From Felixounavirus LF110P4, in the sequence record OZ035790.1: a stretch of 64,000 nt of DNA. The stretch is one strand, 5' to 3'. Positions 32,025 to 58,994 of this stretch are shown piece after piece. The first letter of the stretch is position 1, and every line of letters begins with the position of its first letter. A program made the position numbers and the translations under genes. A model generated the notes under the pieces. That model worked only from the letters and a program-made list of their open reading frames with translations. It searched no databases and had not been told where the DNA came from.

Positions 32025-32295
32025 AGAAAAGTGGGAGATTTTAACATTAGTCAGTGAAGGAGGTAATGGTTGTGAAATGTACATGATACGTGGTCATGTT
32101 CCAGAGCCAATTGCACTTGAGATGGTAAACAACTTTACAGATGGTTCTTACAAAGACTTAGGCGAACCAACTGTCAAGCAACAATGGGTTAAACCTGTAC
32201 CAGACAGCACAGGTAACTGTAGTGTACTTTATCACGTTGTAGACCCTGCAAAATGCAAATCTGCAATGGCAGTAACAAACGTAACTTTTGATTGA
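32017..32295 (+). CDS. hypothetical protein
   Basis: 92 aa ORF. Confidence 0.4.
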   Translation: MAKEKWEILTLVSEGGNGCEMYMIRGHVPEPIALEMVNNFTDGSYKDLGEPTVKQQWVKPVPDSTGNCSVLYHVVDPAKCKSAMAVTNVTFD

Positions 32296-33188
32296 GAGAG
32301 AAAACTATGAAAACATCTATCCGTGTTACAGTTCATTCACCAACTAAAGGAACTCATGAAGAAGAGTTTAACATCATCCAATTTCCTTCTGGTGAGATTG
32401 GTGGACACTTTTCGCCAGAGTTTGTTGATTTCACTGCTTATGCAGCATCATCCATCAACAATGTGATTATGATTGTAAAAGGTTATGATAAGGACACTTT
32501 GTTTGCTGTGGCACTTGCTAAAGAAGCAATTGATGATTTAATTCCTCATGATTATGCTTTAAAGACTGTCATCTTTTACTACTTACCAAATGCACGTTAT
32601 GACCGTCACATGTTTAAAGGCGACGCAGCAGCTTTAAAGGTTTTTGCTAAACAGGTAAATGCAATGGGATTTGGTGCAGTCTGTGCAGTTGACCCTCACA
32701 GTTACGTTCCAGATAACCTGTTTAACTGCTTCCAGAGTATTCCTCAAAAGGAGATTGCAGTCCACTATGCAAATGACCCACTGGTTGATTACTTAGTAGC
32801 CCCAGATGCAGGTGCTGCTAAGAAGGTTGCAGAGACCGCTAAAGAGGTGGATAAACCATATATCACAATGTCTAAGGTGCGTAACCTTAAGACTGGTGAA
32901 ATTACTGGTATGCGAATCCTTGATGATGTTGATTTGACAGATAAAACCGTCATGATTCTGGATGATATCTGTGATGGTGGTCGAACCTTCATAGAAGCAG
33001 CTAAGCATCTTCGTGAAGCAGGTGCAAAACGTGTGGAACTCTATGTAACACATGGTATCTTCTCTAAAGATGTTGAAAACCTTCTTGACAATGGTATTGA
33101 CCACATCTACACTACAAACTCTTTAGGGGAAGCTAAAGACCGTGGTTTAACACATTATGGTCAAGTTACTGTAGCAAATTTGGACTAG
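32292..33188 (+). CDS. ribose-phosphate pyrophosphokinase-like protein (Prs family; possibly ADP-ribose pyrophosphokinase)
   Basis: Type I PRTase PRPP-binding loop VMILDDICDGGRT; about 300 aa. Confidence 0.7.
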   Translation: MREKTMKTSIRVTVHSPTKGTHEEEFNIIQFPSGEIGGHFSPEFVDFTAYAASSINNVIMIVKGYDKDTLFAVALAKEAIDDLIPHDYALKTVIFYYLPNARYDRHMFKGDAAALKVFAKQVNAMGFGAVCAVDPHSYVPDNLFNCFQSIPQKEIAVHYANDPLVDYLVAPDAGAAKKVAETAKEVDKPYITMSKVRNLKTGEITGMRILDDVDLTDKTVMILDDICDGGRTFIEAAKHLREAGAKRVELYVTHGIFSKDVENLLDNGIDHIYTTNSLGEAKDRGLTHYGQVTVANLD

Positions 33189-33196
33189 GTAACAGT

Positions 33197-33688
33197 ATGA
33201 ATAAGGGTTATTTTGAAAAATACCTAATATATGAACCAGATACAGGTTTATTAATTTGGAAAGTAACCCTTTGCAGTACCGCTATTGCTGGTAATGTGGC
33301 TGGCACAAGGTCTAAGAAGGGTTATATCCAAGTCCAGATAAATAAGAAGAGGTACTATGCACATAATATTGCATGGATTATGTCTGGGGGTGAGATACCA
33401 AGTGGATATGAGATAGACCACATAGACCTTGATAAAGCTAATAATAAGTTGGAGAACTTAAGACTTAGCACAAAGTCACAAAATCAGAGGAATAGGGGTA
33501 TACACAAGAATAATAAGACTGGTGTGAAGGGTGTAAGTTTTTGTAAACAAACAGGTCTTTACAAAGCAAGAGTCATGCTTTACCATAAAGAATACTTTTG
33601 TGGAAGATTTAAAACAGTAGAAGAAGCAAAAGAAGCTGTAATTAAAAAGCGAATAGAACTTCATGGTGAGTTTGCAAGACATAACTAA
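33197..33688 (+). CDS. HNH homing endonuclease (HNH plus AP2-like)
   Basis: YEPDTGLLIW motif, HNH core EIDHIDLDKANN, C-terminal HGEFA; lies between Prs-like and NAMPT-like genes. Confidence 0.75.
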   Translation: MNKGYFEKYLIYEPDTGLLIWKVTLCSTAIAGNVAGTRSKKGYIQVQINKKRYYAHNIAWIMSGGEIPSGYEIDHIDLDKANNKLENLRLSTKSQNQRNRGIHKNNKTGVKGVSFCKQTGLYKARVMLYHKEYFCGRFKTVEEAKEAVIKKRIELHGEFARHN

Positions 33689-33704: not shown

Positions 33705-35486
33705 ATGAGTAAGTCACTTTACGCAGTACCAGCAGGTCTTAATGCAGATGCTTACAAGGCATCACATATATATCAGTATCCAGATGCTACACAGTATCTT
33801 ATGTTGAACCTGACACCACGTAGTGACAAATGGTTTAACAGCCCCTTAGCAATTGACGGTGTAGTGGCTTTTGGTATTCAACGTTTTGTTAAAGACTACC
33901 TGATAGACCACTGGAATGCCACCTTCTTTGAACGTGACAAAAAAGAAGCAATTGACGAAATCTTAGAAGTCATGAACGGTGTTCTGGGTAAAGATGCTAT
34001 TGGTCGAGAACATTGGGAAGCACTTCACGACTTAGGTTATCTACCAGTTGAAGTATACGCTGTAGAAGAAGGTACAGTTGTTCCTATGCGTGTACCAATG
34101 ATTGTCTTCCAGAATACTGTTTCAGGTTTCCATTGGGTAGCGGGGTATCTGGAAGATGCTTTCTCTGCTGAGATTTGGAAGGCTTGTACCATTGCAACTA
34201 TTGCATTGCACTACAAACGTATCTGTAAGAAGTGGTCTGACCTTACTTGTGACAACGACTTGCATTTGCCTTATCAGTGCCATGATTTTGCTATGCGTGG
34301 TATGTCCGGCTTTACCGATGACGCATTTAACGCTGTAGGCCACTTAACCAGCTTTAAAGGAACTGATAGCTTCCCTGCTGTGTATACGGCTAAACGAATC
34401 TATGGACAGTCTTACCCAATATCTGATATTGGTAGCTCTGTACCAGCCACTGAGCACTCTGTAATGTGTGCAAACATTGCTTGGGAAGGTGGTAATGAGT
34501 TGATTGAAGAAGAAAGACGCTTTAAAGGTGAGTTACAAACCTTCCGTCGTTTCTTAACAGAAACTTACCCAACTGGTATTGCAAGTATTGTTTCAGATAC
34601 TTATAACTTCTGGAGAACTGTGTCAGAAATCTTACCAGCACTCCGTAAAGAAATTATGGAACGTGATGGTAAACTGGTAATTCGCCCTGACTCTGGAGAC
34701 CCTGTACATATTGTCACAGGTTATAAAGCAATCCACTTAGAGTGTGCTAAAAAGGCTTATTACGAGCACCTAAGCAAGCTTGAAGCCAGCGACACAATGT
34801 TGAATGCTGTTCTGAACATGAAGCTTGAAAACATCAACTATGGTATTGCTGGATGGCTACTGTCAGAAGGCTACGAAATGGTTGTTGACAGAGAAGACTT
34901 TGAAGTTGCTGATACAGTGCTGTTGAAAAACGCTTATATGGTTGGTTCTGCAAACGTTGTAACACGTCCTGTAGCGGAGATTGATGGAGCTATCAAGACA
35001 CTGTATAACATCTTTGGGGGAACTATTAACTCTAAAGGGTTTAAGGTACTGGATGAGCACATCGGCCTTATCTATGGTGACTCTATCACGCTGGAACGTG
35101 CAAACGAAATCCTGAAGCGTCTGTATGAAATGGGTTTTGCAAGCTCTAACGTAGTATTTGGTGTAGGCTCTTACACTTACCAGTACATGACTCGTGACAC
35201 CTTTGCATTTGCTGTCAAAGCAACTCTTGCAAGCATTGGTGGTAAAGAGATTATGCTTGCAAAAGACCCTAAAACAGATAGTGGTGTTAAGAAATCTGCC
35301 TTTGGTGGTGTAGCACCTATGTGGGATGGTGAAAATCTGAAAGCTGTAGATGGCTATGGGTTCCAGAGCTTTGCAGATGCACTTGAACACCCAGCTTGTG
35401 CTTTACGTCTAGTCTTTAGTGACTCTGAGCAGTTCGGCTACACAACTCTTGGTGATATTCGAAATAATATTGACAAGCAGCTTTAA
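33705..35486 (+). CDS. nicotinamide phosphoribosyltransferase-like protein (NAMPT/NadV family)
   Basis: 593 aa; assignment to the NAMPT/NadV family is by recognition of the overall sequence, with no single diagnostic motif picked out. Confidence 0.7.
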   Translation: MSKSLYAVPAGLNADAYKASHIYQYPDATQYLMLNLTPRSDKWFNSPLAIDGVVAFGIQRFVKDYLIDHWNATFFERDKKEAIDEILEVMNGVLGKDAIGREHWEALHDLGYLPVEVYAVEEGTVVPMRVPMIVFQNTVSGFHWVAGYLEDAFSAEIWKACTIATIALHYKRICKKWSDLTCDNDLHLPYQCHDFAMRGMSGFTDDAFNAVGHLTSFKGTDSFPAVYTAKRIYGQSYPISDIGSSVPATEHSVMCANIAWEGGNELIEEERRFKGELQTFRRFLTETYPTGIASIVSDTYNFWRTVSEILPALRKEIMERDGKLVIRPDSGDPVHIVTGYKAIHLECAKKAYYEHLSKLEASDTMLNAVLNMKLENINYGIAGWLLSEGYEMVVDREDFEVADTVLLKNAYMVGSANVVTRPVAEIDGAIKTLYNIFGGTINSKGFKVLDEHIGLIYGDSITLERANEILKRLYEMGFASSNVVFGVGSYTYQYMTRDTFAFAVKATLASIGGKEIMLAKDPKTDSGVKKSAFGGVAPMWDGENLKAVDGYGFQSFADALEHPACALRLVFSDSEQFGYTTLGDIRNNIDKQL

Positions 35487-41775: not shown

Positions 41776-41798
41776 AGGCTCCTTCGGGAGCCTTTTTC
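41776..41798 (+). terminator. rho-independent terminator
   Basis: AGGCTCCttcgGGAGCCT hairpin followed by TTTTT. Confidence 0.55.
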
Positions 41799-41816: not shown

Positions 41817-42164
41817 ATGACATTTAAAGAGTTCTGTCAAGCTACTTTCATAATTGTTTTCTTAGTTGGGGCAGGTGTCTGGGGAGGATACTCTTACAGA
41901 GACTACCAAGTTGCTGAAACTGAGCTAAACAATCAAAAGCTCATAAGTGTTGCTAAAGATGCTTATCAGGAAGGATTAGTCACACTGAGCACCAATTACA
42001 AAAATGATTTGAAAGATGTGCTTGCTAAGAATAAGCATACAAAAGAGGTACTAACATATGAAAAAACTAAGCCAGAGTTTTATAATGTTTGTGTTACTGA
42101 TAACTATGTCAGGGTGTTCAACGAACAAAGTGAGCAGTACATTCAAAAACTCCCAAGTAAGTGA
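41817..42164 (+). CDS. putative i-spanin (Rz-like)
   Basis: N-terminal TM anchor FIIVFLVGAGVWGG then periplasmic coiled-coil; a lipoprotein ORF overlaps its 3' end in another frame. Confidence 0.5.
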   Translation: MTFKEFCQATFIIVFLVGAGVWGGYSYRDYQVAETELNNQKLISVAKDAYQEGLVTLSTNYKNDLKDVLAKNKHTKEVLTYEKTKPEFYNVCVTDNYVRVFNEQSEQYIQKLPSK

Positions 42165-42327
42165 GAGTGATAAGTACACCCAAGAAGAATCACGGTATAT
42201 CATCAAAGGCAACACAGGCAGCGATGTAGCAGCAGCCCTTGAGTTCTATCGTGACGGCTTTTACCAGTGCACAATCAAAGCTAACAACCTTATTGACATG
42301 ATTTTATTAGGGAATAAGCAGCAATGA
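42058..42327 (+). CDS. putative o-spanin (Rz1-like lipoprotein)
   Basis: Lipoprotein signal with lipobox LITMSGC; gene starts inside the i-spanin gene out of frame. Confidence 0.5.
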   Translation: MKKLSQSFIMFVLLITMSGCSTNKVSSTFKNSQVSESDKYTQEESRYIIKGNTGSDVAAALEFYRDGFYQCTIKANNLIDMILLGNKQQ

Positions 42328-43136: not shown

Positions 43137-43337
43137 ATGGCTGACTTCTGTAAAGACTGTTCTATCGAAATGTTCGGACGTGATACAGGTGACTTAAAAG
43201 GTCTTATCACTGAAGATGACTTTAAAGCTGGTTATGCAATGCCAGTAATCTGTGAAGGTTGTGGGTGTATCTGGGTAGACCACGAAGGGCAACGTGTAAA
43301 ACCTTCAGAAGATAAAGAATCTTGGGAGAGATGTTAA
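43137..43337 (+). CDS. zinc-ribbon protein
   Basis: CKDC ... CEGCGC Cys pairs. Confidence 0.4.
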   Translation: MADFCKDCSIEMFGRDTGDLKGLITEDDFKAGYAMPVICEGCGCIWVDHEGQRVKPSEDKESWERC

Positions 43338-44123
43338 ATGGGTATTGTAAAAATCATCAAAGGTGATATCTTTGACGCATTTGATAAAGGCAAATTTGAT
43401 ATCATTGGTCATGGTTGCAACTGTATGAATTTCATGGGTGCAGGTATTGCAGCAACTATTTCTAAGCATTATCCAAAAGTGTATGATACTGACACAGAAG
43501 TTTACCTGTTTGCAGGTGGCATTCGTCACAAACCCTGTGAAAATTTACTAGGTAATTTCTCTGTAGCACGTTTAAAACAAGGCCGTATAGCTAACCTTTA
43601 CACCCAACTTCATACTGGTAAAGATGCCCGATACAGTGCTTTAGAGTCATCTTTGAAACAGCTTAACAGATACTGTGAAGTTAACCAGTTGAAGAAAGTT
43701 GGTCTACCTATGATTGGTGCAGGTATCGGTGGACTTGACCCTCAAGCTGTCACAGTTATCATTAATCAGGTGATGAAGAGTGTAGATGTTTATCTGTATG
43801 TCTATGAAGCAAAAATGTATAATGAGTTACACTCAGGTTGGAAAAACTACTGTGAACCAGAATACTTTGCAGGTGTAGTTGTGTTCACAGATAACGCAGT
43901 TACCCTCTTCAGACGAAGAAAAGGTAAGATACATCAAAGTAACCCTCCGGTTGAAAAGATGTCTCTAAGTAACGCTCTAGTTACCCACCTGTCGAAGAGC
44001 AATCACAGAATTGCAGTAACATTTGGCAGTGATGCAGATGCTTATATCTATGCAAGAACTGATGAGGATATTGAGTTAATCTTCTCTTCACCAGAACTTA
44101 CCTTCTTAGACGCAAAGAACTAA
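43338..44123 (+). CDS. macro-domain-like protein (putative ADP-ribose binding/hydrolase)
   Basis: N-terminal KGDIFDA ... DIIGHGCNCMNFMGAGIAATI resembles the macro-domain Gly-rich ligand-binding loops; C-terminal about 130 aa unassigned. Confidence 0.45.
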   Translation: MGIVKIIKGDIFDAFDKGKFDIIGHGCNCMNFMGAGIAATISKHYPKVYDTDTEVYLFAGGIRHKPCENLLGNFSVARLKQGRIANLYTQLHTGKDARYSALESSLKQLNRYCEVNQLKKVGLPMIGAGIGGLDPQAVTVIINQVMKSVDVYLYVYEAKMYNELHSGWKNYCEPEYFAGVVVFTDNAVTLFRRRKGKIHQSNPPVEKMSLSNALVTHLSKSNHRIAVTFGSDADAYIYARTDEDIELIFSSPELTFLDAKN

Positions 44124-44189
44124 GAAACTTCGTAGTATATTCACAATAGACTAAGCCTTTCTTATCTGGTAAATTTTTCAGGTAAGGAG

Positions 44190-44370
44190 GGCTTTTTCAT
44201 TTCAGATTTGTGCAGGTAGAGTTCTGTAGAGAAATCTATAGAGAAAATTTTGAACTCCAAAGAGAAAATTCATTTTCAAACTGTGCAGGTAATCTCCAAA
44301 GGGTTTTTTCATTTTCAAAACGTGCAGAGAAAAATCAGGTCGGGCAAGAAAAATCATTTTAGAATTGTGC
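44190..44370. repeat. four dispersed copies of a TTTCATTTTCAnnnTGTGCAGGTA-like motif
   Basis: Copies near 44191, 44265, 44303 and 44349 at roughly 40-75 bp spacing. Confidence 0.55.
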
Positions 44371-44410
44371 AGGTAGGTGGGGGTAGGTGGGGGTAGGTGG
44401 GGGTAGGTGG
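44371..44410 (+). repeat. tandem 10-bp G-rich repeat (GGGTAGGTGG x4), G-quadruplex-capable
   Basis: Four perfect or near-perfect tandem units giving successive GGGGG runs separated by TAGGT. Confidence 0.7.
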
Positions 44411-44572
44411 GACTGTCGCCATTTCTCACAAGGCTACCACATCTGAAAATAAAAGTCAACAGAAAAATTTGTAGCGGATTGAAAAATAATTCTTGATTGT
44501 AGTTCTGTTTTGTGGTAGTCGCGCGCACCCGTTTCATTACAATTTTTGCAAAAAATATTTTTAAAAATTTTC

Positions 44573-44601
44573 TTGACTCTTTGAACTGGGTTATCTAATA
44601 T
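44573..44601 (+). promoter_or_regulatory. sigma70-like promoter (TTGACT-17-TAATAT) with upstream A/T tract
   Basis: Near-consensus hexamers with 17 bp spacer, AT-rich UP-like element upstream, 50 bp before ORF 44654. Confidence 0.55.
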
Positions 44602-44653
44602 TTGCATCAGACGGGGCGACAAGCTCAACAACCTTAAACTAGGAGATTCAAAA

Positions 44654-45124: not shown

Positions 45125-45667
45125 ATGAAATGTTATCACGGTACTACTCAAGAAAATTTCCTCAACCTGATTAATAACGGTGATAAACCATCAGGCGCAT
45201 GGAATTGTTCGGATATGGACGGCAATTTTTACGTGTATCCAGAAAATAAAATCTATGGCGACGATGATGAAGAGATAACATCGGAGGGCATTCAGCAAGC
45301 TCTAGGGAACGCCACTATTACGGCGGCCTTCCAGATGAAAACCCAAAATATTGTTATCTTAGAACTCGATATTCCAGATGATGAGCTAAATGATGATTAT
45401 TCTTGTGATAATATGTCGAGTGTAGCAAGTTTTACAGAGTACTTTGATGTAAACTGGATTAAAAAGGTCTATACAACAGAGTTTAACGCTATGTATTCGC
45501 CTTTTTGTCTTCCTTCACTGGATAACCCAAATATGAACTATCTTGATGAGACATTAGAACTACTTGCTAAAAGTGTTCAACAGTCGGACAGTATTCAGGT
45601 TTTTTGTGACATCATAGATACACTGACAGGAAACATTGCAGAAGAGGATTTAAAGAGCTTTTTCTAA
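45125..45667 (+). CDS. hypothetical protein
   Basis: 180 aa acidic protein; same conserved leader/RBS upstream. Confidence 0.45.
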   Translation: MKCYHGTTQENFLNLINNGDKPSGAWNCSDMDGNFYVYPENKIYGDDDEEITSEGIQQALGNATITAAFQMKTQNIVILELDIPDDELNDDYSCDNMSSVASFTEYFDVNWIKKVYTTEFNAMYSPFCLPSLDNPNMNYLDETLELLAKSVQQSDSIQVFCDIIDTLTGNIAEEDLKSFF

Positions 45668-58324: not shown

Positions 58325-58401
58325 CTCTGTTTAGCTCAGCTTGGTAGAGCGTTCCGTTTGGGGCGGTAAGGCCGGAGGTTCAAGTCCTCCAACAGAGACC
58401 A
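58325..58401 (+). tRNA. tRNA-Pro (anticodon UGG)
   Basis: Manual cloverleaf: acceptor CTCTGTT/AACAGAG, T-arm GGAGGttcaagtCCTCC, anticodon loop TTTGGGG, CCA encoded. Confidence 0.6.
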
Positions 58402-58408
58402 AATTAAT

Positions 58409-58486
58409 GTTCCAGTAGACAAAATGGTAAAGTCACCACTCTTTCAAAGTGGATATTTGAGGGTTCAAATCCCTTCTGGAACGCCA
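58409..58486 (+). tRNA. tRNA-Glu (UUC)
   Basis: Acceptor GTTCCAG/CTGGAAC, anticodon stem CCACT/AGTGG, loop CTTTCAA, T-loop TTCAAAT. Confidence 0.6.
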
Positions 58487-58493
58487 GTTTTGA

Positions 58494-58565
58494 CAGAAGA
58501 CCAATTACAGCAAACTTAATCTACTCATCTGAAAGTTAATCGGACAAAGAAGATATTTGGTCTGG
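58494..58565 (+). ncRNA. candidate structured RNA element 1 (bulged closing stem CAGAAGACCAA/TTGGTCTGG)
   Basis: 5' CAGAAGACCAATTACAGCAA and 3' TTGGTCTGG inverted repeat; member of a 4-copy family with covarying stem. Confidence 0.35.
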
Positions 58566-58576
58566 TCATTAAGAAT

Positions 58577-58653
58577 TGCGGGTATAGAGAAAGGGCGTCT
58601 CACATGTCTCATTAGCATGGTATCGGCAGGTTCGACTCCTGCACCCGCCTCCA
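58577..58653 (+). tRNA. tRNA with CAU anticodon (Met/fMet/Ile2 type)
   Basis: T-arm GCAGGttcgactCCTGC, acceptor TGCGGGT/ACCCGCC with 1-72 mismatch, anticodon loop CTCATTA; structure partly irregular. Confidence 0.45.
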
Positions 58654-58659
58654 AATTTA

Positions 58660-58724
58660 CAGAAGACCGTTTACAGCAATATTTATTAAGTTTTTAGCGG
58701 AAAAAATTGAAAGATACGGTCTGG
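58660..58724 (+). ncRNA. candidate structured RNA element 2
   Basis: 5' CAGAAGACCGTTTACAGCAA and 3' ACGGTCTGG; stem covaries (CGT/ACG versus CAA/TTG) relative to element 1. Confidence 0.35.
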
Positions 58725-58737
58725 TAATACTAAACAT

Positions 58738-58814
58738 GGTTAGGAAGCACATAAGGTATGTGCGGTCGCCTGTTAAGCGAATGGCACAGGGTTCGAATCC
58801 CTGACTAACCGCCA
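58738..58814 (+). tRNA. tRNA-Asn (GUU)
   Basis: D-stem GCAC/GTGC, anticodon loop CTGTTAA, T-arm CAGGGttcgaatCCCTG, CCA encoded. Confidence 0.6.
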
Positions 58815-58823
58815 AATTTAAAT

Positions 58824-58911
58824 GTGTCGTTATCCCGTAGATGGTAGCGGTGGGGACTGTAAATCCCTTGTCATTGAGACTCGGTAGGTTCGACTCCTAC
58901 ACGGCACACCA
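58824..58911 (+). tRNA. tRNA-Tyr (GUA), class II
   Basis: 88 nt with long variable arm; anticodon stem-loop GGGGActgtaaaTCCCT; T-arm GTAGGttcgactCCTAC. Confidence 0.6.
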
Positions 58912-58916
58912 ATAAA

Positions 58917-58994
58917 GGTTATGTAGTTTAATTTGGTTAAAATACTCCCCTGTCACGGGAGATGATGAGGGTTCAAATCCCTTCGTAACCGCCA
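58917..58994 (+). tRNA. tRNA-Asp (GUC)
   Basis: Anticodon stem-loop CTCCCctgtcacGGGAG; T-loop TTCAAAT; CCA encoded. Confidence 0.65.

What the first reader, a model, noticed from the sequence alone, without database searches (positions are those of the whole stretch)
43338..44123. Macro-domain-like protein (candidate ADP-ribose binding or removal)
The N-terminal half carries macro-domain-like glycine loops (DIIGHGCNCMNFMGAGIAATI). Viral macro domains commonly reverse or sense ADP-ribosylation, so this could counter host ADP-ribosylating toxins or defence systems. The C-terminal 130 aa have no recognisable motif.
Basis: partly seen in the sequence, partly recalled or inferred. Interest (0 to 1): 0.55.

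Follow-up and report, generated by a model that had tools for sequence, protein, structure and literature searches.

The report
Phage macrodomain enzyme, likely anti-DarT
This Felix O1-type phage gene really does encode an ADP-ribose-removing macrodomain, a relative of phage T4's newly named anti-DarT factor AdfM, so it is an expected counter-defence gene; the one unexplained part is an extra, fast-evolving tail domain.

Summary
The ORF (43338-44123, +, 261 aa) is real, and its N-terminal 157 aa form a genuine macrodomain. Pfam Macro scores above threshold. An AlphaFold model (pLDDT 86) matches TARG1, DarG and Poa1p structures (TM 0.75-0.85). The window is a Felixounavirus, and about 200 sequenced relatives carry the gene, usually labelled "phosphatase".

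The closest characterised relative is T4 Tk.4 (35% identity, E 6e-24). A 2025 preprint named it AdfM after its knockout sensitised T4 to DarTG2. DarG is the only defence-system or NCBIfam model hit, and only its macro half matches. The family has an invariant Gln where DarG and TARG1 have the catalytic Lys. Streptomyces SCO6735, a proven thymidine-ADP-ribose DNA hydrolase, has the same Gln.

Most likely function: removing DarT2-type ADP-ribose from phage ssDNA. This is inferred, not shown.

The C-terminal ~100 aa fold as a separate beta-rich domain. It has no sequence or fold relative outside Ounavirinae phages and is not DarG's DarT-binding domain. It evolves 2-5 times faster than the macro domain. 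The gene is also a mosaic hotspot: phage Si3 has 94%-identical flanks but a 40%-identical allele.

The parts
43338..44123 (+). Whole gene: 261-aa two-domain protein (macrodomain plus lineage-specific C-terminal domain), stop codon included
   Evidence: ORF list. Full-length match to phrog_335 at E 8e-114. About 200 Felixounavirus records at 90-98% nt identity.
43324..43330 (+). Shine-Dalgarno-like GGGAGAG, 7 nt upstream of the ATG; the ATG abuts the stop codon of the upstream 66-aa ORF (43137-43337)
   Evidence: Read directly from the sequence.
43338..43808 (+). Macrodomain, aa 1-157, TARG1/DarG/Poa1p (ALC1-like) class, Gln-type
   Evidence: Pfam Macro 29.4 bits, aa 25-141. AF2 model with pLDDT mostly 87-96 here, apart from the first residues and aa 131-150. 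Foldseek hits to TARG1, DarG and Poa1p at E 1e-10 to 1e-8, TM on target 0.75-0.85. DarG models match aa 5-162. T4 Tk.4 is 35% identical, E 6e-24.
43410..43451 (+). Motif 1: H25-G-C-N28-C-M-N-F-M-G-A-G-I-A38 (ADP-ribose-binding loop; invariant H25, G26, N28, C29, M33, G36 and A38 in the family)
   Evidence: Alignment A1. N28 aligns with PhiKZ AdfM N23, whose mutation reduces activity. The H-x-x-N spacing matches SCO6735 H24/N27 and the Poa1p H23-S-C-N-C motif.
43593..43607 (+). Motif 2: N86-L-Y-T-Q90, invariant in the family; Q90 occupies the position of catalytic K84 of TARG1 and K80 of DarG
   Evidence: Profile-to-TARG1 alignment and alignment A1. Literature: SCO6735 Q85 is at this position and is essential.
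43713..43733 (+). Motif 3: I126-G-A-G-I-G-G132, the phosphate-binding loop; G131 sits where TARG1 has D125
   Evidence: Alignment A1 and profile alignment to TARG1. Family member P0025's IGCGIGGG aligns with SCO6735's IGCGLAGG, which contains G128.
43809..43859 (+). Linker, aa 158-174: a helix followed by a low-confidence loop
   Evidence: AF2: helix 158-167, pLDDT below 50 at aa 170-172.
43860..44120 (+). C-terminal beta-rich domain, aa 175-261: six strands, a short helix between strands 3 and 4, and a C-terminal helix; orphan fold and sequence family, fast-evolving
44153..44204 (+). Terminator-like hairpin plus T-run that ends the transcription unit (the unit starts after the hairpin at 41776-41793)
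   Evidence: Pattern scan. This is a consensus match only.

Best explanation
The gene encodes an early-region, phage-borne 'orphan antitoxin' of the AdfM type. The N-terminal macrodomain binds ADP-ribose attached to a base in single-stranded phage DNA, most likely the thymidine adduct made by DarT2 toxins of DarTG2 defence systems. It hydrolyses the glycosidic link, releases free ADP-ribose and restores replicable DNA. Catalysis probably follows the water-mediated, glutamine-dependent route described for SCO6735, with Q90 positioned by N28, rather than the lysine route of DarG and TARG1. The C-terminal ~100-aa domain is an accessory module peculiar to Ounavirinae phages. I think it most likely mediates a protein contact, with the toxin or with a replication or host factor, that improves neutralisation, but this is the weakest step. 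What is shown here: the ORF, the macro fold, the class, motif conservation, homology to T4 Tk.4 and DarG, the domain architecture and the evolutionary pattern. What is inferred: the substrate (DarT2-modified DNA), the anti-defence role in this phage, the Gln mechanism, and any role for the C-terminal domain.
For: Macro fold and class: Pfam above threshold; AF2 pLDDT 85.9; Foldseek top hits TARG1, T. aquaticus and M. tuberculosis DarG, and Poa1p; family profile against PDB at E 9e-17 to 1e-11 for TARG1, SCO6735 (5E3B), Poa1p and DarG. DarG is the only hit in PADLOC (E 8.8e-15) and in NCBIfam (E 1.6e-14). The closest characterised homologue is T4 Tk.4: 35% identity, E 6e-24, sharing HGCNC, NLYTQ and IGAGIG, and each genome shows a single such gene. 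A tk.4 knockout sensitises T4 to DarTG2, and the gene was named adfM (preprint 10.1101/2025.11.20.689424). PhiKZ AdfM removes DarT2 ADP-ribose from DNA in vitro and rescues DarT2 toxicity (PMC13309987). The Gln at the catalytic-Lys position is not a defect: SCO6735 has Q85 there, cleaves thymidine-linked ADP-ribose from DNA, and loses all activity in Q85A (PMC9411070 and PMC9967889). Context fits an anti-defence gene. It lies in the early region after rIIA/rIIB among small unknown ORFs, with no adjacent toxin. It is a mosaic hotspot with two alleles only 40% identical in 94%-identical backbones, and both alleles keep all three motifs. The macro domain is under strong purifying selection, dN/dS 0.03-0.21.
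Against: No biochemistry or genetics exists for this protein or for any Felixounavirus homologue. The evidence for T4 Tk.4 is genetic only and comes from a preprint. At 35% identity, substrate specificity could differ. This family lacks the Lys and the nearby Trp that DarG uses (K-x-x-W is present in PhiKZ AdfM). The Q90-to-Q85 equivalence rests on transitivity through TARG1, because I could not obtain a direct alignment of that segment with 5E3B. The same family is annotated Poa1p-like phosphatase and shares Poa1p's H-x-C-N-C motif, so a small-molecule substrate is not excluded. The C-terminal domain has no informative relative, and its net charge is not conserved across homologues (pI 4.6-9.1), so its role is conjecture.
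Confidence: 0.55

Rival explanations
1. It reverses some other macromolecular ADP-ribosylation rather than DarT2's thymidine-DNA adduct. Candidates are protein Asp/Glu-ADP-ribose, phosphate-linked or base-linked RNA ADP-ribosylation by other host toxin or defence ARTs, or an ADP-ribose-derived immune signal. The anti-DarT2 role of T4 Tk.4 would then not transfer to this protein.
For: TARG1-class enzymes are promiscuous. SCO6735 also acts on Asp/Glu-linked protein ADP-ribose, and TARG1 acts on phosphate-linked RNA and DNA. Identity to T4 Tk.4 is only 35%. The extra C-terminal domain and the divergent alleles could reflect a different or additional target.
Against: DarG is the only defence model hit. 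The nearest experimentally characterised relatives (T4 Tk.4, SCO6735, DarG, PhiKZ AdfM) all act on or counter DarT2-type thymidine ADP-ribosylation. SCO6735 is inactive on 2'-OH RNA ADP-ribosylation, while its reported activity on phosphate-linked substrates is inconsistent within the same paper. T-even phages carry Tk.4 yet are still restricted by the mRNA ART CmdTAC (abstract of PMC11618068).
Confidence: 0.2
2. It is a metabolic enzyme for small ADP-ribose derivatives, either an ADP-ribose-1''-phosphate phosphatase or an O-acetyl-ADP-ribose deacetylase as the database labels say. It would clean up by-products of RNA repair or sirtuin reactions, or feed the phage's NAD+ salvage pathway.
For: Database annotations read 'phosphatase', 'O-acetyl-ADP-ribose deacetylase' and 'Poa1p-like'. 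The H-x-C-N-C motif is shared with yeast Poa1p, and Poa1p structures are among the top fold matches. The phage encodes a polynucleotide kinase 2 kb upstream (by annotation of relatives) and NAD+ salvage genes 8-11 kb upstream.
Against: These labels are propagated from domain names, not from assays. A housekeeping role does not predict the mosaic allele replacement or the fast-evolving accessory domain. The T4 orthologue shows a defence-specific phenotype. No Tpt1/KptA-type enzyme that would generate Appr>p appears in the annotation of the relative examined. Poa1p S30, mutated in PDB 6LFT, aligns with a non-conserved position, F32 here.
Confidence: 0.12
3. The macrodomain is mainly a binder or sequestering protein rather than an enzyme. 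It would shield ADP-ribosylated DNA or bind and inhibit the toxin, with the C-terminal domain supplying the inhibitory contact.
For: Catalytically dead DarG, TARG1 and especially SCO6735 still inhibit DarT in vitro. DarG neutralises DarT partly through a second, non-catalytic domain. This protein has a second domain and lacks the canonical catalytic Lys.
Against: All residues linked to catalysis in the Gln-type enzyme SCO6735 (His, Asn, Gln and the loop Gly) are invariant across the family, including the 40%-identical Si3 allele, which argues for retained catalysis. The C-terminal domain shows no similarity to DarG's DarT-binding domain.
Confidence: 0.08

Closest known systems
T4 Tk.4 = AdfM (anti-DarT factor, macrodomain), T-even phages
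   Same: Homologous macrodomain: 35% identity over aa 3-157, E 6e-24. Identical signature motifs HGCNC, NLYTQ (Gln, not Lys) and IGAGIG. Phage-encoded with no cognate toxin, and the only such gene in each genome. Both hit the DarG models.
   Different: Tk.4 is a single 155-aa domain, whereas this protein has an additional ~100-aa C-terminal domain. The genomic neighbourhood differs: tk-vs in T4, spanins and small early ORFs here. The anti-DarTG2 phenotype is shown only for T4.
Streptomyces coelicolor SCO6735 (PDB 5E3B), Gln-type TARG1-like thymidine-ADP-ribose DNA hydrolase
   Same: Second-best distinct PDB family for the profile, E 6.6e-16. It has Gln at the catalytic-Lys position, the same H-x-x-N spacing, and the G-x-G-[LI]-[AG]-G-G phosphate loop. 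It is a stand-alone hydrolase with no adjacent DarT.
   Different: SCO6735 is a cellular, DNA-damage-induced single-domain protein, not a phage protein. I did not obtain a direct residue alignment around Q85.
DarG2 antitoxin of DarTG2 (T. aquaticus 5M31/5M3E, M. tuberculosis 5M3I; NCBIfam NF048014, PADLOC PDLC02990)
   Same: Same macro subclass and fold (Foldseek E 5e-10, TM 0.82). It is the only defence or NCBIfam model hit. Both have a two-domain layout with the macrodomain first.
PhiKZ gp104 = AdfM of chimalliviruses
   Same: Phage macrodomain of the DarG/TARG1 class. The conserved Asn (N23 there, N28 here) aligns. It has proven DarT2-adduct hydrolase and antitoxin activity.
   Different: Only 25% identity (E 4e-5). 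It is the Lys type (T-K-D-N-W), single-domain, and imported into the phage nucleus.
Human TARG1/OARD1 and yeast Poa1p
   Same: Best PDB sequence and fold matches. The H-x-C-N-C motif is shared with Poa1p.
   Different: The TARG1 catalytic dyad K84/D125 corresponds to Q90/G131 here. Both are eukaryotic cellular enzymes with other physiological substrates.

Membership tests
Macro domain superfamily (Pfam PF01661) | HMM score at or above the curated gathering threshold | tested here: met
   29.4 bits against a cutoff of 22, aa 25-141 covering model positions 2-117 of 118.
Macro domain superfamily (Pfam PF01661) | Three-layer alpha/beta/alpha macro fold | tested here: met
   AF2 model with pLDDT 85.9. 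239 PDB matches at E<=0.001, and all 50 listed are macrodomains or designed proteins with the same fold. TM on target 0.75-0.85 for TARG1, DarG and Poa1p.
Macro domain superfamily (Pfam PF01661) | Binds ADP-ribose | not testable with these tools
   Only the Gly-rich loops (MGAGIA, IGAGIGG) and the conserved Asn could be checked, and they are conserved.
AdfM, T4 Tk.4 type | Significant homology to T4 Tk.4, with mutual uniqueness | tested here: met
   35% identity, E 6e-24. One place per T-even record. One macro ORF in this window.
AdfM, T4 Tk.4 type | Shared active-site signature (HGCNC / NLYTQ / IGAGIG) | tested here: met
   Visible in the pairwise alignment and invariant in alignment A1.
AdfM, T4 Tk.4 type | Stand-alone single-domain protein of about 155 aa | tested here: not met
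   261 aa with a separate C-terminal domain.
AdfM, T4 Tk.4 type | Protects the phage against DarTG2 / removes the DarT2 adduct from DNA | not testable with these tools
   Requires a knockout plated on a DarTG2 host and an in vitro assay.
DarG2 antitoxin (NCBIfam NF048014 equivalog) | Equivalog score cutoff | tested here: not met
   53.9 bits against 250; only model positions 2-152 of 338 match. The PADLOC DarG model matches positions 5-148 of 329.
DarG2 antitoxin (NCBIfam NF048014 equivalog) | Catalytic lysine (K80 in T. aquaticus DarG) | tested here: not met
   Invariant Q90 aligns with TARG1 K84, which is equivalent to DarG K80.
DarG2 antitoxin (NCBIfam NF048014 equivalog) | C-terminal DarT-binding domain | tested here: not met
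DarG2 antitoxin (NCBIfam NF048014 equivalog) | Encoded next to its darT toxin gene | tested here: not met
   Nine neighbouring ORFs have no Pfam hit and only unknown-function or spanin PHROGs. The three neighbours scanned against PADLOC have no hit.
SCO6735-type (Gln-dependent) thymidine-ADP-ribose hydrolase | Gln at the catalytic-Lys position, plus the His/Asn pair and the loop Gly (H24, N27, Q85, G128) | tested here: inconclusive
   Q90 is equivalent by transitivity through TARG1. The H25-x-x-N28 spacing is identical. The loop Gly aligns directly for family member P0025. No direct alignment of the Gln segment with 5E3B was obtained.
Poa1p-like ADP-ribose-1''-phosphate phosphatase (source of the 'phosphatase' label) | Poa1p active-site residues (H23 and S30 are the mutated positions in PDB 6LFS and 6LFT) | tested here: inconclusive
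   The H23 equivalent (H25) is invariant. The S30 equivalent is F32 here and is variable in the family. The roles of these residues were not checked in a paper.

The most novel reading that the evidence does not exclude
The orphan C-terminal domain is an independently evolved toxin-binding module. The protein would then be a phage-borne functional analogue of full-length DarG, neutralising DarT2 (or another ADP-ribosyltransferase) both by erasing the adduct and by stoichiometric inhibition. The two deeply divergent alleles that replace each other in otherwise near-identical Felixounavirus genomes (this window versus phage Si3) would be matched to different toxin variants.
Probability: 0.15. 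Interest if true: 0.6.

Novelty: new member of a known kind. Interest (0 to 1): 0.33.

Why it matters
Felix O1-type phages are widely used in Salmonella and E. coli typing, biocontrol and therapy. If this gene protects them from DarTG2 systems, it helps predict and engineer host range. It would extend the newly defined AdfM counter-defence family to a third major myovirus group. It would also provide a second natural example, after SCO6735, of a glutamine-type rather than lysine-type DNA ADP-ribosylglycohydrolase, in a system where genetics is easy. The fused, fast-evolving domain and the allele replacement offer a compact case for asking how orphan antitoxins diversify. In most respects, though, this is an expected gene in an expected place.

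Tried and rejected

2. Homologues of the C-terminal domain elsewhere. The word-indexed search found none and Pfam found none. The exhaustive profile search found only family members and fragments, plus P0029. P0029 is a 2,374-aa repeat protein and an artefact: ten identical repeats score 6.9 bits each. BFVD returned only the family itself. The afdb50 library was unavailable. There is no paralogue in the window and no similarity to T4 tk.1-tk.3, vs or vs.1.

3. The C-terminal regions of the Pectobacterium-phage proteins P0010-12 were put into alignment A2, but they are not detectably homologous to this domain (E>=14 with an HMM built from the close group). The C-terminal AF2 run therefore rested on about 8 true homologues.

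4. ORF 45125-45667 as an ADP-ribosyltransferase partner, suggested by its N-terminal 'YHGTT...FYVYP': no support from PDB or Pfam with either the single sequence or a 12-member profile, nor from PADLOC.

5. A second macro gene or a DarT in the window: none.

6. Direct residue alignment of the NLYTQ segment with SCO6735 (5E3B): not obtained, because the printed alignments were taken up by TARG1 and Poa1p entries.

7. Rfam on the downstream intergenic region: nothing significant.

8. Literature on the Felixounavirus gene itself: none found.

Full report
**Observation.** An ATG-to-TAA ORF lies at exactly 43338..44123 on the + strand and encodes 261 aa. A GGGAGAG ribosome-binding site lies 7 nt upstream, and the ATG abuts the stop of the preceding 66-aa ORF. 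A terminator-like hairpin follows at 44153-44194, and a similar hairpin at 41776-41793 marks the start of the unit. The gene is therefore the last cistron of a short + strand transcription unit.

**Where it comes from.** The window is a Felixounavirus, a Felix O1-like myovirus of the subfamily Ounavirinae. The gene matches 200 phage records by megablast, 199 over at least 80% of its length, at 90-98% identity for all but four. The best is Escherichia phage VpaE1_ev78 at 98.2%. Depositors call it 'phosphatase', 'hypothetical protein', 'macro domain protein' or 'O-acetyl-ADP-ribose deacetylase'. It lies in the early region: rIIA, rIIB, lysin, polynucleotide kinase, the i- and o-spanins, four small unknown ORFs, then this gene, then a ~500-bp gap. 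The same order holds in Suspvirus, and the immediate neighbourhood is similar in Mooglevirus.

**The N-terminal domain is a macrodomain of the TARG1/DarG/Poa1p class.**
- Pfam Macro scores 29.4 bits against a cutoff of 22.
- phrog_335 matches full length at E 8e-114.
- The single sequence finds OARD1/TARG1 and both DarG macrodomain structures in the PDB.
- A 26-sequence family profile finds TARG1 (E 9e-17), SCO6735/5E3B (6.6e-16), BT1257, Poa1p and DarG (1.6e-14 and 9.6e-12).
- An AlphaFold2 model built on that alignment has mean pLDDT 85.9. Foldseek places it on TARG1, T. aquaticus DarG, Poa1p and M. tuberculosis DarG at E 4e-10 to 1e-8, with TM 0.75-0.85 on the target.

**Active site.** The family alignment has three invariant blocks: H25-G-C-N28-C...M-G-A-G-I-A, N86-L-Y-T-Q90, and P-x-I-G127-A-G129-I-G-G. 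In the profile alignment to TARG1, Q90 falls on catalytic K84 and G131 on D125. So this is not a lysine-type enzyme like TARG1, DarG (K80) or PhiKZ AdfM (T-K-D-N-W). That is not a sign of inactivity. Streptomyces coelicolor SCO6735 carries Q85 at the same position, efficiently removes thymidine-linked ADP-ribose from DNA, and loses all activity in Q85A and Q85E. Its N27, H24 and G128 also matter (PMC9411070; review PMC9967889).

The H-x-x-N spacing is identical here. N28 aligns with PhiKZ AdfM N23, whose mutation reduces activity. The phosphate loop of family member P0025 aligns directly with the SCO6735 loop that contains G128. I could not obtain a direct alignment of the NLYTQ segment with 5E3B, so the Q90 = Q85 equivalence is by transitivity through TARG1.

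**Closest characterised relative.** tblastn finds N-terminal-only matches in about 2,500 further phage records, including T-even phages at a locus next to vs. In T4 that gene is tk.4, annotated 'phosphatase; contains A1pp phosphatase motif'. T4 Tk.4 is 35% identical over aa 3-157 (E 6e-24) and has the same HGCNC, NLYTQ and IGAGIG motifs. A 2025 preprint found tk.4 as the single hit in a transposon screen on a DarTG2 host. It showed that a clean knockout sensitises T4 to DarTG2 and named the gene adfM (10.1101/2025.11.20.689424). Independently, PhiKZ gp104, also named AdfM, removes DarT2's ADP-ribose from DNA in vitro and rescues DarT2 toxicity (PMC13309987). That protein is a more distant Lys-type relative, 25% identical at E 4e-5.

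Of 5,027 PADLOC defence models the only hit is DarG (E 8.8e-15). The only NCBIfam hit is the DarG equivalog model (E 1.6e-14, 53.9 bits against a cutoff of 250). In both cases only the macro half of the model matches. The window has no other macro gene and no DarT-like neighbour.

**The C-terminal domain.** After a linker helix (aa 158-167) and a low-confidence loop, aa ~175-255 form a separate domain of six beta-strands and a C-terminal helix. The strands and that helix are reproduced in the full-length model and in a model of the domain alone (pLDDT 81.9, pTM 0.74); the full-length model adds a short helix at aa 205-208.
- It has no Pfam or PADLOC hit.
- It has no homologue outside its own family in an exhaustive HMMER search of 1.84 billion representatives. 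The one outside hit is an artefact of ten identical repeats.
- It has no BFVD relative except the family's own SUSP2 protein.
- In phage genomes it occurs in 246 records, all Ounavirinae-type, always as the tail of this gene.
- The equivalent ~100-aa tails of the Pectobacterium-phage relatives are not detectably homologous to it.
- Net charge varies widely among homologues, pI 4.6-9.1. This gives no support for ssDNA mimicry or for a conserved nucleic-acid-binding surface.

**Evolution.** Between genera the macro domain stays 76-80% identical while the C-terminal domain drops to 44-55%. In more distant relatives the figures are 43-50% against 10-25%. Nei-Gojobori dN/dS is 0.03-0.21 for the macro domain. 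For the C-terminal domain it is 0.12-0.23 within the genus and 0.4-0.8 between genera, where dS is near saturation. Both domains are therefore real, selected coding sequence, and the second evolves 2-5 times faster.

The gene is also a recombination hotspot. Salmonella phage Si3 (Felixounavirus Si3) and a metagenomic contig (P0009, a cluster of 96 sequences) are 94-95% identical in nucleotides to this window through all upstream genes, with upstream proteins 94-100% identical. Homology breaks just inside the 5' end of this gene, at about window position 43479. The encoded protein is only 39.8% identical, and weak homology (71-84%) resumes in the downstream spacer. The divergent allele keeps HGCNC, NLYTQ and IGAGIGG at the same positions, keeps the two-domain layout, and hits DarG even better (E 2.5e-16). 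Conserved catalysis combined with wholesale allele replacement is the pattern expected of a counter-defence gene.

**Mechanism and rivals.** I commit to this being an AdfM-type orphan antitoxin. Its macrodomain removes DarT2-type ADP-ribose from thymidines in single-stranded phage DNA by a Gln-dependent, water-mediated mechanism, and the C-terminal domain is an accessory, probably protein-binding, module (confidence 0.55). The rivals are:
- another macromolecular or signalling ADP-ribose substrate (0.2);
- the small-molecule 'phosphatase/deacetylase' role implied by the annotations (0.12);
- a mainly non-catalytic binder (0.08).

The phage also carries NAD+ salvage genes 8-11 kb upstream: a PRPP-synthetase-like gene at 32292-33188 and a nicotinamide phosphoribosyltransferase at 33705-35486. 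This shows a general investment in NAD/ADP-ribose conflicts but does not discriminate between the explanations.

**Novelty and verdict.** Macro domains are present in about 41% of myoviruses (PMC9503650). The T4 homologue's function was published in 2025, so a specialist would not be surprised. I found no paper that treats the Felixounavirus protein, its C-terminal domain or its allelic mosaic. I file it as a new member of a known kind (the AdfM family, Gln type) with a variant two-domain architecture. It fails the tests for being a DarG. Interest is modest (0.33). The only part that could raise it is the orphan C-terminal domain.

Noticed in passing
window 44124-44653 (intergenic, downstream of the gene): A structured non-coding spacer. 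It holds four copies of a ~28-34-nt direct repeat ending ...TTTTCATTTTCAAAnnGTGCAG (44188-44372, spacing 39-73 nt), then a 10-nt G-rich tandem repeat GTGGGGGTAG x4 at 44367-44416, plus AT-rich palindromes at 44532-44574. It is much less conserved than the upstream genes (71-84% against 94% in Si3 and L014). There is no Rfam match. Some relatives annotate small ORFs here, on either strand. Function unknown; it could hold promoter or operator repeats or a replication or recombination element.
   Followed up: partly
window 45125-45667 (+), 180 aa: A conserved protein of unknown function (phrog_3303) with an invariant N-terminal H-G-T-T motif and invariant K21, W26, S29, D32, Y36, P84 and D91-x-S-C. 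It occurs in 375 phage records, including Felixounavirus, Suspvirus, Kolesnikvirus, Pakpunavirus, Otagovirus and Vibrio phages. By eye the N-terminus recalls H-Y-E ADP-ribosyltransferases, but no sequence or profile search supports that.
   Followed up: partly
window 32292-33188 and 33705-35486 (+): NAD+ salvage genes: a PRPP-synthetase-like protein (Pfam Pribosyltran and Pribosyl_synth) and a nicotinamide phosphoribosyltransferase (NAPRTase and NAMPT_N). They are separated by a 163-aa ORF (33197-33688) at the position of an 'HNH homing endonuclease' annotated in a relative.
   Followed up: partly
window 58325-63585 (+): A cluster of 26 tRNA genes covering most amino acids, including two each of Met, Lys, Arg, Gln and Ser and three Leu. 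This is typical of Felix O1-like phages.
   Followed up: no
L015 (Salmonella phage Si3, NC_041922) 1985-2764; L014 6001-6780: A second allele class of the macro gene, 40% aa identity, sits in a backbone 94% identical in nucleotides. The breakpoint is just inside the 5' end of the gene, at about window 43479. How many Felixounaviruses carry each allele was not counted.
   Followed up: partly
P0019; hit H62, Vibrio phage Morian: Other architectures and contexts for Tk.4-type macrodomains. P0019 is a 339-aa protein that combines Pfam PF20274 with Macro. In Vibrio phage Morian the macro homologue lies next to a gene annotated ribose-phosphate pyrophosphokinase.
   Followed up: no
window 41817-42164 and 42058-42327 (+): An overlapping pair of ORFs in different frames, which relatives annotate as i-spanin and o-spanin. 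They lie in the same transcription unit as the macro gene rather than next to the endolysin and holin annotated elsewhere in a relative.
   Followed up: no
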